The translations under genes and the position numbers were made by a program. Source: the human T2T-CHM13v2.0 reference genome, Homo sapiens. From it: 64,000 nucleotides of DNA. How positions within the stretch are numbered: the first letter of the stretch is position 1; every line of letters begins with the position of its first letter. The DNA lies in NCBI RefSeq assembly GCF_009914755.1, contig NC_060938.1; one strand, written 5' to 3'. The notes under the pieces were generated by a model that worked only from the letters and a program-made list of their open reading frames with translations, ran no database searches and was not told where the DNA came from. Positions 34,620 through 39,544 of this stretch are shown piece after piece.

Positions 34620-36413
34620 TGCTTTTTCTGAGGTGCAATTCATAAATAACATAAAACTAACCATTTTGAAATGTACAGTTCAGTGGCAGGTAGTATATTC
34701 ACAGTGTTGGATAACCACCACCTCATCTAGTTCCAGAACATTTTCATTTACCCCGAAGAAAACCCTGTACACATTAAGCAGTTATTTCTTATTTCCCCAC
34801 TACTCCAGTCCCTGGCAGTAACCAATCTGCTTTATGGCTCTCTGAATTTACTAATTCTGGATATTTCATATCAGTAGAATCACACAATGTATGACCTTTT
34901 CTTCTGCTTCTTAGCATTATTGTTTTGAGGCTCATCTGTGTTGTAACATGTATCATTATGTGTATATACATACATACATGCACACACATTTTGCTTTTTC
35001 AATCGTTTGGTGGACATTTGGGTTATTTCCACCTTTTGGCTATTGTGAACAGTCTGCTGTGAACATTCATGTGTACAACTATTCGTTCAAGTACCTGTTT
35101 TCAATTATTTTGGGTACCTAGGAGTAGAATACTGGATCATATGGTAATTCTGTGTTTAACTTCTTGAGGAACTGTCAAATTGTTTCCACAGTGGATGCAC
35201 CATTTTACTTCCCACCAACAATGTGTAAGGGTTCAAATTTCTCCATGTTGTTGCCAACACTTGTATGTGTTCTGTATGTGTATTAATTTTAGCTGTCTTA
35301 TCCCTTTTGATAAGGTTTCCTTTTAATCACTAAGTAGGTTACTTTGTCAGTATTGTGATTTTAGCAATATTAAGTCTTCGAATCCATGAATGTTTGATGT
35401 CTTTTTTATTTGTCTTTAATTTCTTTCAGTACCGTTTTGTAGTTTTCAGTGTTCAAGTCTTGCCTTGGTTAAATTTATTCCTAGGTATTTTATTGGAATG
35501 TTATTGTAAATGGAATTTAATTTAATTTTCATGTTTATGGATGTTTATGGTGGTGTGTAGAACTGATTTTTGTGTGTTGATCTTGTATCCTGAAATTTTG
35601 CCAAATTATTAGCTCTATTTTTTGTGTGTATTTGGGGGTTTTTATATATGTTTGTCTTCTGTGAATAGGGATACCTTTACTTTCAAATCTGAATGCTTTC
35701 TATTTCTTTGTCTTGCCTAATTGCTGTGGCTTGAACTTCCAGTGCAATGTTGAATAGCAGTTGTGAAAAGAGCACACGCTTGTCTTGTTCCTTATCTCAG
35801 GGGAAGCTTTTATTATTTCATCATGGAGTATGATATCAGCTGTGGGTTTTTTTTGTTTGTTTGTTTTTTTGAGATGGAGTCTCACAGTTCTGAACGCTAG
35901 AAGTCTGAAAGCAAGGTGTCAGCAGGGCCATGTTCCCTCTGAGACTCTAGGTAAACCTTCCTTGCCTCTTTCTTGCTTCTGGTGGTGGCTGTCAATCCCT
36001 GGTGTTCCATGGTTGGCAGCTGTATTACTACAATCTCTGCCTTTGGCATTCTCCATGTGCGTGCGCAGGTGTGTTTTCTCTTCTTTTCATAAGGACATCA
36101 GTCATATTGGGTTAAGGACCTCACCCTACTCCAATAATGACCACATCTTACCTTAACTAACTACATCTGCAATGATCTATTCCCAATAAGGTCACCTTCT
36201 AAGGTATTGGGGGTTAAGACTTCAACATATCTTTTTAGGACACAAAATTCAACTCATAATACCTTTCATTCCTAGTTTGTTGAGTGATGACAATGATTAT
36301 TATTATGAAAGGACATTGGATTTTATTGGATTATTTTTCTGTGTCAGTTGAGATAATCATGTTATTTTTCTTTTCTTTCATTTATTGATGTATTACATGG
36401 ATTGATTTTTCTT
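34620..36413 (-). mobile_element. L1MB-type element (3' end plus ORF2); continues at 38296-38525 after the SVA composite
   Basis: ttgaaatgtacagttcagtggc; ggatcatatggtaattctgtgtttaacttcttgaggaact; sequence joins across the SVA TSD. Confidence 0.8.
35880..36261 (-). mobile_element. MLT1C-like MaLR LTR, one end missing
   Basis: ctcacagttctg...aaggtgtcagcagggccatgttccctctg...aaggacatcagtcatattgg...gggggttaagacttcaacatatc. Confidence 0.85.
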
Positions 36414-36424
36414 TTTTTGGGGGG

Positions 36425-36605
36425 GGAGTAGTGAGCGTTTAATGGGTGCAGAGTTTCAGTTTTGCAAGATGAAAACAGCTCTGGAGATGGGTGGTAGTGA
36501 TGGATGCACAATATGAATGTACTTAATACCACTGAAGTGTACACTTACAAATGGTTAAGGTGGTAAATTTTATGTCATGTGTATTTTACCACAATAAAAA
36601 AAAAA
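36425..36605 (+). mobile_element. L1MB-type extreme 3' end (inside the SVA 3' transduction)
   Basis: tttaatgggtgcagagtttcagttttgcaagatgaaaa...aatggttaaggtggtaaattttatg...cacaataaaaaaaa. Confidence 0.85.
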
Positions 36606-36622
36606 TCAGGAAATATGATATC

Positions 36623-36788
36623 TTTTTTTTTTTTTTTTTGAGGTAGAGTCTCACTCTGTCACCCAGGCTGGAGTACAGTGGTGTAGTCTTGGCTCACTGC
36701 GACCTCCACCTCCTGGGTTCAAGTGATTCTCCTGCCTCAGCCTCCCAAGTAGCTGGGACCACAGGTGCGTGCCACCACTCCTGGCTGA
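36623..36788 (-). mobile_element. Alu right monomer only (inside the SVA 3' transduction)
   Basis: Poly(T) plus right arm ending at the A-rich linker, directly abutting the SVA tail. Confidence 0.88.
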
Positions 36789-38010
36789 TTTTTTTTTTTT
36801 TAATTTTTTTAGTATTTATTGATCATTCTTGGGTGTTTCTGGGAGAGGGGGATTTGGCAGGGTCATAGGACAACAGTGGAGAGAAGGTCAGCAGATAAAC
36901 ATGTGAACAAAGGTCTCTGGTTTTTCTAGGCAGAGGACCCTGCAGCCTTCGGCAGTGTTTGTGTCCCTGGGTACTTGAGATTAGGGAGTGGTGATGACTC
37001 TTAACAAGCATGCTGCCTTCAAGCATTTGTTTAACAAAGCACATCTTGCACCGCCCTTAATCCATTTAACCCTGAGTTGACACAGCACATGTTTCAGAGA
37101 GCACGGGGTTGGGGGTAAGGTTATAGATTAACAGCATCCCAAGGCAGAAGAATTTTTCTTAGTACAGAACAAAATGGAGTCTCCTATGTCTACTTCTTTC
37201 TACGCAGACACAGTAACAATCTGATCTCTCTTTCTTTTCCCCACATTTCCCCCTTTTCTATTCGACAAAACCGCCATCGTCATCATGGCCCGTTCTCAAT
37301 GAGCTGTTGGGTACACCTCCCAGACGGGGTGGCGGCCGGGCAGAGGGGCTCCTCACTTCCCAGACGTGGTGGCCAGGCAGAGGGGCCTCCCCACCCCCGA
37401 GACAGGGCGGCTGGAGGCGCCCCCCACCTCCCAGACGGGGTGGCCGGGCGGAGATGCTCCTCACTTCCCAGACGGGGCAGCTGCCGGGCGGAGGGGCTCC
37501 TCACTTCTCAGACGGAGCGGCTGGGCAGAGGCACTCCTGAGTTCCCAGACGTGGTCACGGCCGGGCAGAGGTGCTCCCCACTTCCCAGACGGGGTGGCGG
37601 CCGGGCAGAGGCGCTCCTCACCTCCCAGACGGGGTGGCGGCCGGGTAGAGACGCTCCTCACCTCCCAGACAGTGCGGCCGGGCAGAGGCGCTCCTCACAT
37701 CCCAGACAGGGTGGCCGGGCAGAGTCGCTCCCCACATCCCAGATGATGGGCGGCCAGGCAGAGACGCTTCTCACTTCCTAGACGGGATGACGGCCGGGAA
37801 GAGGCGCTCCTCACTTCCCAGACTGGGCGGCCAGGCAGAGGGGCTCCTCACATCCCAGACGATGGGTGGCCAGGCAGACGCTCCTCACTTCCTAGATGGG
37901 GTGGCGGCCGGGCAGAGGCCGCAATCTCAGCACTTTGGGAGGCCAAGGCAGGCGGCTGGGAGGTGGAGGTTGTAGCGAGCCAAGATCATGCCACTGCACT
38001 CCAGCATGGG
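36789..38010 (-). mobile_element. SVA (old, SVA_A/B-like): tail 36789-36810, SINE-R about 36811-37315, VNTR about 37315-37920, partial Alu-like about 37921-38010; no (CCCTCT)n head
   Basis: tttattgatcattcttgggtgtttct SINE-R end; repeated ctcctcacttcccagacggggtggcggccgggcagag units; gcaatctcagcactttgggaggccaaggcaggcggctgggagg. Confidence 0.96.
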
Positions 38011-38295
38011 CTGGGCTCCCAAACAGGTTCATCCTCACACCAACTTGCAAGGGCGTGGCCCGCCTTGTCACCATGAGACCCTGAGAAAGTCCCTTCACCT
38101 CGCTGGGCTCTGGTTTCCTCATTCCAAGGATGGCTCTGCTATCTGCGTGTCGGCTATCGGTGCTGAGGCTGGCCCGCCTCTGCGTGGGCAGGATCTTGGC
38201 ATTCCTTTTGCTCCATGGACGCTGCCTCCCTGGGCTCGCCGCGCCTGGCCGCCCGGCAGGCAGCCCCAGGCCCCGGCTGCTCCATCCCGCTGCCC
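38011..38295 (-). other. GC/CpG-rich non-SVA segment fused to the SVA 5' end (5' transduction), includes a MIR-like piece at about 38065-38122
   Basis: Lies inside TSD tgatttttctt; composition unlike the AT-rich flanks. Confidence 0.75.
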
Positions 38296-39544
38296 TGATT
38301 TTTCTTATATTAAACCCCCTTGCATTCCTGGAATAAATGCTTTTGGGATTATGGTATATAATCCCTTTAATATGCTGTTAGATTTTATTTGCTAGTATTT
38401 TGTTGAAGACTTTTGCATCTATATTCATAAAAGATACTGGTCTGTTGTGTTTTCTTGTGGTGTTTTTGTCTGGCTTTAATGTCAGGATGCTACTGACCTC
38501 ATAGGAGTTAGGAAGTGTTTCTACTTTTAGAATGGTATATTTAATGACTGTGTTCCCTGGTTTTAAAAGTGCACTGTCTTCAGAATCTACTGAGGCATTC
38601 CTGTGTTAGAGACTTACGCTTTCTAAATTTTTTTCTGCATTTTTAGTTTTTCAGCCTCCTGCTTTATTGTCAGTATACCTCCTGCTGCTGTGTATCTCAT
38701 TTTTGCTTTTCTAGTTTGCAACTTCTAATCTGCTGTGAGTCAGGAAAACATATGGCAGAGTTAAATTGTGCTTTTGGTTAGGTTAGATAGAATCTGTGGA
38801 AAAACCCAAGGTGTTTCTCTTATAAGTAAATAATATATTTTAGTGGAAAGGCTTTGTGACATATTATTGGCTACTTGTAGTCCTTTCTGTTCCCATTTTT
38901 TTTTCAGTTATGCTAGAGTAGGTGATCAGGTGACCAAATTCCAGATAGCTGAGGTATTACTGTATTTGCCAGAATTTTTATTTGCATGTGGTTGCAGTTA
39001 ATCTGGAACGCCCCACTATGACAAATGAATTATAAAGAAATAGAGACTATCTTTAAAGCGTAGCAGTTATATTTTTGGTAAAAGTGGATTAGAAGGATAA
39101 ACATTAATAGCCTTCTCTGTATATTGGTCTAAAACTTGTGTTTTGTTTCACCACCCCAATATGGGATGAAAATGGATGAATGAATCTTTGTGTTATTGCT
39201 AAAGTAAATACAACTTCCTTAAGTAAAACCTTTTTGTTTAAACTTCAGCTTTCCCACTTGATGCTTTCAAGAACTCCCACTTTTTTTTTTTTAATCACTA
39301 CAACACTTTTTCACTAAATATCAATCCCTTGTTTCTCCTGCCCTACCTTGTCTGGATATTTCTCAATCCATTTTTATGTTCACTCCCTTGCATACTTCCT
39401 CGAAATTTCCACCATTTTATTCACTTGGCAAAACCTCAACTTTGGTTAAACCTCTGGTTACTCTGTGTTTGAACCAGAACAGGGGATATCATGGCTATAG
39501 AAAAACAAGCCATGCAGTTCACTTTGACTGTATGACCACACTTC

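What the first reader, a model, noticed from the sequence alone, without database searches (positions are those of the whole stretch)
36403..38306. Composite SVA retrocopy carrying both 5' and 3' transduced DNA in a single insertion
Seen: TSD tgatttttctt at 36403-36413 and 38296-38306; removing the interval rejoins an old L1 (ttacatggattgatttttctt|atattaaacccccttgcattcctgg). On the minus strand the insert reads, in order: 285-nt foreign GC-rich leader; headless SVA; SVA poly(A); right arm only of an Alu with its tail; short spacer; antisense L1MB end; ATTAAA (36438-36443); 19 nt; short poly(A) (36412-36418). Inference: the source SVA sat in the linker of an Alu elsewhere, was transcribed from a host promoter and read through to a cryptic ATTAAA, and the whole chimeric RNA was retroposed here. 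Established: SVA 5' and 3' transductions each occur. A copy with both, which repeat annotation would split into unrelated pieces, traces a source element and perhaps a sibling family.
Basis: partly seen in the sequence, partly recalled or inferred. Interest (0 to 1): 0.85.

Follow-up and report, generated by a model that had tools for sequence, protein, structure and literature searches.

The report
LRRC8A-exon/SVA chimeric retrocopy in ARHGAP5
This is one old retrotransposed copy of a hybrid RNA in which four spliced leader exons of the chr9 gene LRRC8A were joined to an SVA element sitting in that gene's intron and ran on into the intron; it is a clean but ordinary example of a mechanism already described for SVA elements.

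Summary
Window 36414-38295 (minus strand is sense) is a single 1882-nt L1-type insertion. It is bounded by an exact 11-bp target-site duplication that occurs nowhere else in the window. The flanking old L1 is continuous across the gap.

The "GC-rich leader" is not raw flanking DNA. It is four GT-AG-spliced exons lying 14-25 kb upstream of the main LRRC8A coding exon on chr9. They are joined at the last exon's donor to an AG acceptor in the SVA Alu-like domain. After the SVA poly(A) come about 370 nt that are contiguous on chr9, 2.2 kb downstream of the last leader exon on the same strand. This stretch starts in the A-rich linker of a full Alu and ends 19 nt after an ATTAAA.

Two refinements apply:
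- The 5' part was acquired by exon trapping.
- The source SVA is absent from 48 kb of chr9 in this assembly.

No sibling copies were found. Non-CpG divergence of about 3% suggests an insertion older than the human-chimpanzee split. The mechanism is in print, including SVAs carrying both transductions, so this is a new member of a known kind.

The parts
38296..38306 (-). Target-site duplication, the copy at the 5' end of the insert (minus-strand reading starts A-rich, preceded by AT, an L1-endonuclease-like site)
38295..38295 (-). Extra G not templated by chr9 (chr9 has C at 141086932); possibly cap-derived, which would mean the cDNA reached the RNA 5' end
   Evidence: cap-G statement in review PMC4859970 (passage); inference
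38230..38294 (-). Leader exon A = chr9 141086933-141086997 (CpG-rich first-exon region upstream of LRRC8A), 4 of 65 differences, all CpG transitions
38123..38229 (-). Leader exon B = chr9 141090762-141090868 (ag|...|gt), 7 of 107 differences
38067..38122 (-). Leader exon C = chr9 141096860-141096915 (ag|...|gt), 3 of 56 differences; part of it also matches a repeat copy on chr2
38006..38066 (-). Leader exon D = chr9 141097142-141097202 (ag|...CAG|gtgaga), 1 of 61 differences (the last base)
37920..38005 (-). Remnant of the SVA Alu-like domain, starting exactly after the AG that precedes GCTGGAGTGC in three canonical SVAs; hexamer and the rest of the Alu-like domain are missing
37314..37919 (-). 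SVA VNTR, period 37-40, about 16 copies
36811..37313 (-). SVA SINE-R with AATAAA at 36815-36820; 97-98% identical to the 39 best other genomic SVAs scored
36789..36810 (-). Poly(A) of the source SVA (22 nt with a TT), merging into the Alu linker
36430..36788 (-). 3' transduced LRRC8A intron = chr9 141099401-141099758: Alu right arm (36640-36788), its A tail (36623-36639), spacer and a high-copy repeat fragment, ATTAAA at 36438-36443; 340 of 356 aligned bases identical
36414..36429 (-). Last bases before cleavage (diverged from chr9: 3-nt insertion and a longer C run) and the non-templated A5 tail (36414-36418; 7 A's if the first two of the TSD are counted)
36403..36413 (-). Target-site duplication, the copy at the 3' end of the insert

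Best explanation
An SVA once sat, in sense orientation, in a 5'-UTR intron of LRRC8A on chr9. It had inserted into the A-rich linker of an Alu about 2.2 kb downstream of a non-coding exon.

A transcript started at the LRRC8A promoter. It spliced four 5' exons together and then spliced the last one onto the AG acceptor in the SVA Alu-like domain. That step removed the SVA hexamer and most of the Alu-like domain.

The transcript ignored the SVA's own AATAAA and ran about 370 nt into the intron. It was cleaved and polyadenylated after a cryptic ATTAAA.

The L1 machinery copied this 1.9-kb chimeric RNA into an old L1 in an ARHGAP5 intron, antisense to ARHGAP5, making an 11-bp TSD.

The source allele was later lost, or is absent from this haplotype. 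The copy left no offspring.

- **Shown:** the anatomy, the TSD, flank continuity, mapping of both ends to one chr9 locus, GT-AG boundaries, the empty chr9 site, and absence of siblings in this assembly.
- **Inferred:** the former existence and exact place of the source SVA, use of the LRRC8A promoter, and the date.
For: **Leader.**
- It hits only itself, four chr9 pieces in collinear order, and one 46-nt match on chr2 to part of exon C (a repeat copy); that is 6 matches from 5 candidates.
- Each chr9 piece is bounded by ag and gt, and the intervening 3.8, 6.0 and 0.2 kb are missing from the copy.

**Gene identity.** A 755-codon open frame at chr9 141111911-141114175, same strand, matches LRRC8A chains at E = 0 with residue 1 of the query at residue 30 of the chain. 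All four leader exons therefore lie upstream of the start codon.

**SVA junction.** The SVA part begins at GCTGGAGTGC. In 3 of 3 canonical SVAs fetched, this is preceded by CCCAG.

**3' piece.** It matches chr9 141099387-141099758 in one block of 375 columns at 93.9%. From the Alu arm onward, 340 of 356 bases match. The next best genomic matches are 87% or less. The chr9 Alu is whole, with its left arm directly upstream.

**Insertion hallmarks.**
- ATTAAA is shared, and the terminal A's are absent from chr9.
- The TSD is unique in the window.
- 8 of 14 informative paralogues show the flanks abutting.

**Mechanism in print.**
- MAST2 and STK40 exon capture at an Alu-like acceptor, and lost source elements (PMC6139936, passages).
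Against: - No SVA sequence lies at the inferred source site or anywhere in chr9 141074001-141122000. The SVA body gives only chance hits of 25 nt or less there. The source is therefore inferred, not seen.
- The exon D/SVA junction has 6 bases shared by both partners, so that junction alone does not prove splicing.
- The last base of exons B, C and D differs from chr9 in the copy. The model does not predict this.
- The terminal poly(A) is only 5-7 nt, and the 16 nt before it differ from chr9 by an insertion and a longer C run.
- I could not check that exons B-D are annotated LRRC8A exons. The assignment rests on strand, position and splice sites.
Confidence: 0.88

Rival explanations
1. There was never a genomic SVA in LRRC8A. 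The chimera was made at the RNA or cDNA level. The L1 reverse transcriptase began on an intronically polyadenylated LRRC8A RNA and switched in the A-rich Alu linker to the poly(A) of an unrelated SVA RNA. It then switched again to spliced LRRC8A leader RNA. Alternatively, the leader was trans-spliced to an SVA RNA.
For: - The chr9 site is empty, with an intact Alu.
- The 3' junction lies in an A run, and the 5' junction has 6 nt of shared sequence. Both could guide template switches.
Against: - It needs two switches that bring in, from the same gene and in genomic order and orientation, a piece ending exactly at a gt donor and a piece of the very next intron.
- It also needs the SVA breakpoint to fall exactly behind an AG.
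- One cis transcript explains all of this. Loss of a source allele is commonplace: PMC6139936 describes source elements that can no longer be found, and PMC12593883 traced source elements for 84% of transduction-carrying SVAs, so the rest have none identified (abstract).
Confidence: 0.07
2. Several independent events: an SVA inserted beside a pre-existing Alu/repeat block and a pre-existing GC-rich segment at the ARHGAP5 locus. The 11-bp repeat would be a coincidence.
For: Repeat masking splits the interval into separate pieces and leaves the leader unmasked (hub annotation).
Against: - The flanks abut in the L1 family with exactly the TSD shared.
- The SVA has no TSD of its own at its inner borders.
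- Leader and tail both derive from chr9.
- The 11-mer occurs only at the two borders.
Confidence: 0.02
3. DNA-level duplication or gene conversion moved chr9 material to chr14, or the reverse direction, with chr14 as the source.
For: None beyond the sequence similarity.
Against: - Introns are precisely missing from the chr14 copy and present on chr9.
- chr9 holds the complete Alu.
- The chr14 copy ends in non-templated A's and has a TSD.
Confidence: 0.01

Closest known systems
[quoted passage not shown]
   Same: A GC-rich 5' exon of a host gene replaces the hexamer and most of the Alu-like domain. It is acquired by splicing to an acceptor in the Alu-like domain and then retrotransposed by L1 (PMC6139936, PMC4859970, passages).
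   Different: - The leader maps to chr9 upstream of LRRC8A, not to MAST2 or STK40. No chr1 hit was found.
- It holds four exons rather than one.
- It founded no family: no other copy in this assembly.
- I did not compare the acceptor position with that of SVA_F1.
SVA 5' transductions by exon trapping (Damert et al. 2009; Hancks et al. 2009)
   Same: Transcription starts in an upstream exon, splices into an intronic sense SVA, and the chimeric RNA is retrotransposed, as summarised in PMC4859970.
   Different: Neither 2009 paper is held, so I could not see whether their genome-wide lists already include this copy. What I say about their contents rests on citing papers and on recall.
SVA 3' transduction, and SVAs carrying both 5' and 3' transductions (chr10-derived SVA_F1 group)
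   Same: - Read-through of the SVA AATAAA to a downstream signal carries source flank with it.
- PMC12593883 counts 22 insertions with both ends transduced.
- PMC10681720 counts 1389 5' and 748 3' events in 7554 insertions.
   Different: Here both ends come from one gene and one event, the source is not in the assembly, and the copy appears old rather than polymorphic and human-specific.
Partial processed pseudogene
   Same: It has spliced exons without introns, a poly(A) and a TSD.
   Different: Only non-coding 5' exons of LRRC8A are present, fused to an SVA. There is no coding sequence (one search places the start codon downstream of all four exons).

Membership tests
L1-mediated (target-primed) retrocopy | Target-site duplication at both borders and continuity of the flanks once the insert and one TSD copy are removed | tested here: met
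   The 11-bp exact repeat occurs only at the borders. 8 of 14 informative paralogous L1 copies, out of 24 examined, show the flanks overlapping by 10-12 bases.
L1-mediated (target-primed) retrocopy | 3' poly(A) not templated at the source, preceded by a polyadenylation signal | tested here: met
   ATTAAA lies at 36438-36443 and is shared with chr9. The A5-7 that follows is absent from chr9. The tail is short.
SVA element | Hexamer repeat, Alu-like domain, VNTR, SINE-R and AATAAA in order | tested here: inconclusive
   VNTR, SINE-R at 97-98% to other SVAs, AATAAA, and the last 86 nt of the Alu-like domain at 96-98% to other SVAs are present. The hexamer and the rest of the Alu-like domain are absent. 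It is an SVA-derived, 5'-replaced copy.
SVA exon-trapping 5' transduction | Upstream part equals host exons joined at GT-AG boundaries, ends at a donor, and the SVA part starts behind an AG | tested here: met
   Four chr9 pieces have ag/gt borders and the introns are absent. CCCAG precedes the SVA start in 3 of 3 canonical SVAs.
SVA_F1 (MAST2) subfamily | Leader derived from MAST2 exon 1 | tested here: not met
   The leader's only genomic matches are itself, four chr9 pieces upstream of LRRC8A, and one 46-nt chr2 match.
SVA 3' transduction | Sequence after the SVA poly(A) is contiguous at one other locus and ends at a downstream poly(A) signal | tested here: met
   One block covers chr9 141099387-141099758, with 340 of 356 bases identical from the Alu arm on.
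SVA 3' transduction | A source SVA lies directly upstream of the transduced sequence at the source locus | tested here: not met
   There is no SVA in chr9 141074001-141122000 of this assembly, and the Alu there is intact. Other haplotypes and species were not testable.
Transduction group (sibling family) | Two or more insertions sharing the transduced sequence | tested here: not met
   Genome-wide searches with the leader and with the tail found no further copy. The searches score only the best candidates: 5 of 5 for the leader, 40 of 2693 for the tail.
SVA subfamily A-F | Diagnostic SINE-R substitutions | not testable with these tools
   No subfamily consensus could be obtained.

The most novel reading that the evidence does not exclude
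The copy may be a roughly 10-15-million-year-old fossil of an extinct LRRC8A allele and of a germline 5'-UTR isoform. The fact that the last base of three of its four exon junctions (G on chr9) reads A, C and T in the copy may not be chance. It could reflect either systematic miscopying of the base at exon-exon junctions when L1 reverse transcribes spliced RNA, or donor sites of young alternative exons that were strengthened to G on chr9 after the copy was made.
Probability: 0.1. Interest if true: 0.6.

Novelty: new member of a known kind. Interest (0 to 1): 0.3.

Why it matters
The copy is a compact, fully traceable example of SVA-mediated exon shuffling. One insertion carries a host promoter-proximal exon, three further spliced exons, the SVA and downstream intron, so the source site can be pinned to within a few bases although the source is gone. 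It records that LRRC8A once carried an intronic SVA that trapped its 5' exons. It also preserves an old splice isoform.

Practically, it shows that repeat masking leaves such leaders unannotated. The leader here is unmasked, and RefSeq places an 'enhancer' feature over the SINE-R/VNTR part. It adds no new mechanism.

Tried and rejected
- **MAST2/SVA_F1.** This was my first guess from recall. I rejected it because the leader maps to chr9, not chr1.
- **Source SVA.** I looked for it in 18 kb and then 48 kb of chr9 and found none.
- **Siblings.** None found with the leader or the tail.
- **Polarising the odd base at the end of exon C.** I tried the one chr2 repeat copy that matches it, but the alignment stops 11 nt before the exon end, so it says nothing.
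- **Fetching SVA relatives for subfamily placement.** Only three stretches of about 125 bases were fetched afterwards.
- **Literature.**
  - Full-text searches for SVA with LRRC8A, ARHGAP5 or LRRC8 gave no retrotransposon paper naming this copy.
  - Supplements of PMC12593883 hold neither gene name.
  - Supplements of PMC6139936 gave only gorilla contig numbers for the coordinate prefixes I estimated from recalled hg19/hg38 offsets.
  - Damert 2009, Hancks 2009 and Hancks & Kazazian 2010 are not held.
  - The paper reader closed before I could search the supplements of PMC10681720.
  - These unseen lists may well contain this element.
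Full report
**What is in the sequence**

Read on the minus strand, the interval opens with the 11-base repeat at 38306-38296 and closes with the same 11 bases at 36413-36403. The 11-mer has only these 2 matches in the 64-kb window.

Between the two repeats lie 1882 bases, in this order:
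- one extra G at 38295;
- a 289-nt, 65% GC leader at 38294-38006;
- the last 86 nt of an SVA Alu-like domain;
- a VNTR at 37314-37919, period 37-40, about 16 copies;
- a SINE-R ending in AATAAA at 36815-36820;
- 22 A's broken by TT at 36789-36810;
- an Alu right arm with an A17 tail;
- a spacer and a fragment of a high-copy repeat;
- ATTAAA at 36438-36443, then 19 nt, then five to seven A's.

**One insertion, not several**

I took 24 paralogous copies of the old L1 that flanks the insert and compared both flanks with each.
- 14 carried a left-flank match on the same strand as the right-flank match.
- In 8 of these the projected ends overlap by 10-12 bases. This is what is expected if the flanks abut in the L1 and the 11-bp TSD is present in both queries.
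- One overlaps by 6. Four give 301, 297, 27 and -47, from partial left hits far from the junction.
- 10 had no left hit.

The SVA has no repeat of its own at its inner borders. On the sense strand the TSD begins A-rich and is preceded by AT, close to the usual L1 endonuclease site (established knowledge).

**Where the two foreign ends come from**

A whole-genome search with the leader gave 6 matches from 5 candidates:
- the leader itself;
- four pieces on contig 9, all on the plus strand and in order: 141086933-998, 141090760-875, 141096860-914 and 141097142-197;
- one 46-nt match on chr2.

A search with the last 212 nt of the insert gave itself, then chr9 141099563-141099758 at 95%. After that came only repeat copies at 87% or less, with 40 scored of 2693 candidates.

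A direct BLAST of the insert against 18 kb of chr9 showed the whole of 36802-36430 as one block on chr9 141099387-141099758 (93.9% over 375 columns). That is 2.2 kb downstream of the last leader piece, on the same strand.

**The leader is spliced RNA**

On chr9 each piece is bounded by splice signals:
- A ends CAG|gtgagt;
- B is ag|...|gtaagg;
- C is ag|...|gtgggt;
- D is ag|...CAG|gtgaga.

With these bounds the four exons (65, 107, 56 and 61 nt) add up to exactly the 289 nt of the leader, and the next base is the first SVA base. The introns of about 3.8, 6.0 and 0.2 kb are absent from the copy.

**The gene**

A 755-codon open frame lies at chr9 141111911-141114175 on the same strand. It matches LRRC8A chains of the Protein Data Bank at E = 0, with query residue 1 at chain residue 30. 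The start codon therefore lies in that exon, and all four leader exons are upstream, non-coding exons. They sit 14-25 kb upstream, and exon A is in a CpG-rich stretch.

That they belong to the LRRC8A transcription unit is an inference from strand, order and splice sites. I had no annotation for chr9.

**The junction with the SVA**

The SVA part starts at GCTGGAGTGC. In three canonical SVAs fetched for comparison, these bases are preceded by CCCAG (3 of 3). The SVA breakpoint is therefore directly behind an AG.

This is the antisense-Alu type of acceptor that the review PMC4859970 describes (passages). Exon D also ends in the same six bases, so the exact crossover point is ambiguous within 6 nt.

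**The 3' end**

On chr9 the matching block begins inside the A-rich linker of a complete Alu, whose left arm lies directly upstream.

The ATTAAA and the eight bases after it are the same on chr9. After that the copy has a 3-nt insertion, a longer C run and then A's that chr9 lacks. The RNA was therefore cleaved some 13-19 nt after a cryptic ATTAAA in the intron and polyadenylated.

**The source is gone**

The SVA body (VNTR plus SINE-R, 1118 nt) has no match longer than 25 nt in chr9 141074001-141122000. The Alu at the inferred insertion point is intact.

The simplest reading is that the source allele never reached fixation or is absent from this haplotype. PMC6139936 describes several SVA source elements that can no longer be found.

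The rival is a chimera made by template switching or trans-splicing without a genomic source. It would need two independent joins that happen to respect a donor, an acceptor, the gene's own order and its strand. I give it 0.07.

**Age**

| Segment | Differences from chr9 | Source |
|---|---|---|
| Leader | 15 of 289, of which 6 are CpG transitions | |
| 3' piece from the Alu arm on | 16 of 356, of which 3 are CpG transitions, plus 3 gap events | |
| Pooled, excluding CpG transitions | 22 of 645, 3.4% (95% interval 2.1-5.1%) | |
| Pooled, also excluding the four junction positions | 19 of 641, 3.0% | |

Both lineages have changed. From recalled human-ape divergences (about 1.2% for chimpanzee, about 3% for orangutan), this points to an event older than the human-chimpanzee split, roughly 10-15 million years ago.

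The SINE-R is 97-98% identical to the 39 best other SVAs scored, of 2161 candidates. The subfamily could not be assigned.

**No family**

Neither the leader nor the tail has another copy in the assembly, so there is no sign that this copy was itself mobile. This fits the review's statement that SVAs need the hexamer and Alu-like domain for retrotransposition.

**Comparison with what is known**

Every step is described in print:
- splicing of upstream exons into an intronic SVA and retrotransposition of the chimera (PMC4859970);
- the MAST2 and STK40 exon captures (PMC6139936);
- frequent 5' and 3' transductions (PMC10681720: 1389 and 748 of 7554 insertions);
- insertions with both ends transduced (PMC12593883: 22 in the chr10 SVA_F1 group).

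The copy is not SVA_F1, because its leader is not MAST2.

I found no paper naming an LRRC8A-SVA chimera or an SVA transduction in ARHGAP5. However, the two 2009 inventories and the supplements of PMC10681720 could not be read.

**Unexplained**

The last base of exons B, C and D is G on chr9 but A, C and T in the copy. Only the A/B junction keeps its G.

Three of four junction positions differ, against 6 of 285 other leader positions with non-CpG-transition changes. That gives a binomial P of 4e-5, or 5e-4 using the overall rate of 15 of 289. The test is post hoc. I have no tested explanation.

The extra G at 38295 (chr9 has C) may be a copied cap, as the review says of full-length copies.

**Verdict**

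It is a well-resolved instance of a known mechanism, of modest interest.

Noticed in passing
window 38123, 38067, 38006 (minus strand): The last base of leader exons B, C and D is G on chr9 but A, C and T in the retrocopy. That is 3 of 4 exon junctions, against 6 of 285 other positions with comparable changes. Post hoc P is 4e-5 to 5e-4.
   Followed up: partly
window 38295: There is a single G between the TSD and the first chr9-templated base (chr9 has C). It may be a reverse-transcribed cap, which would place a transcription start at chr9 141086933 (review passage).
   Followed up: partly
L037 (chr9 141096860-141096915) and L006 (chr2 72939556-72939601): Leader exon C, including the bases before its acceptor, resembles an interspersed repeat copy on chr2. 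From recall it looks like an exonised MIR. No repeat library was available to confirm this.
   Followed up: partly
window 36745-37695: The RefSeq 'enhancer' feature given by the hub lies wholly inside the insert. It covers the end of the Alu right arm, the SVA poly(A), the SINE-R and about half of the VNTR, so the annotated element is SVA-derived sequence.
   Followed up: no
window 36419-36429: Between the ATTAAA and the poly(A), the copy has a 3-nt insertion and eight C's where chr9 has four C's followed by other bases. The origin of the extra C's is unknown.
   Followed up: no
G000:C13:31937963-31939364: An SVA on chr13 is among the closest relatives in both the SINE-R (98%) and the Alu-like remnant (97%). 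It has a canonical Alu-like domain upstream.
   Followed up: partly
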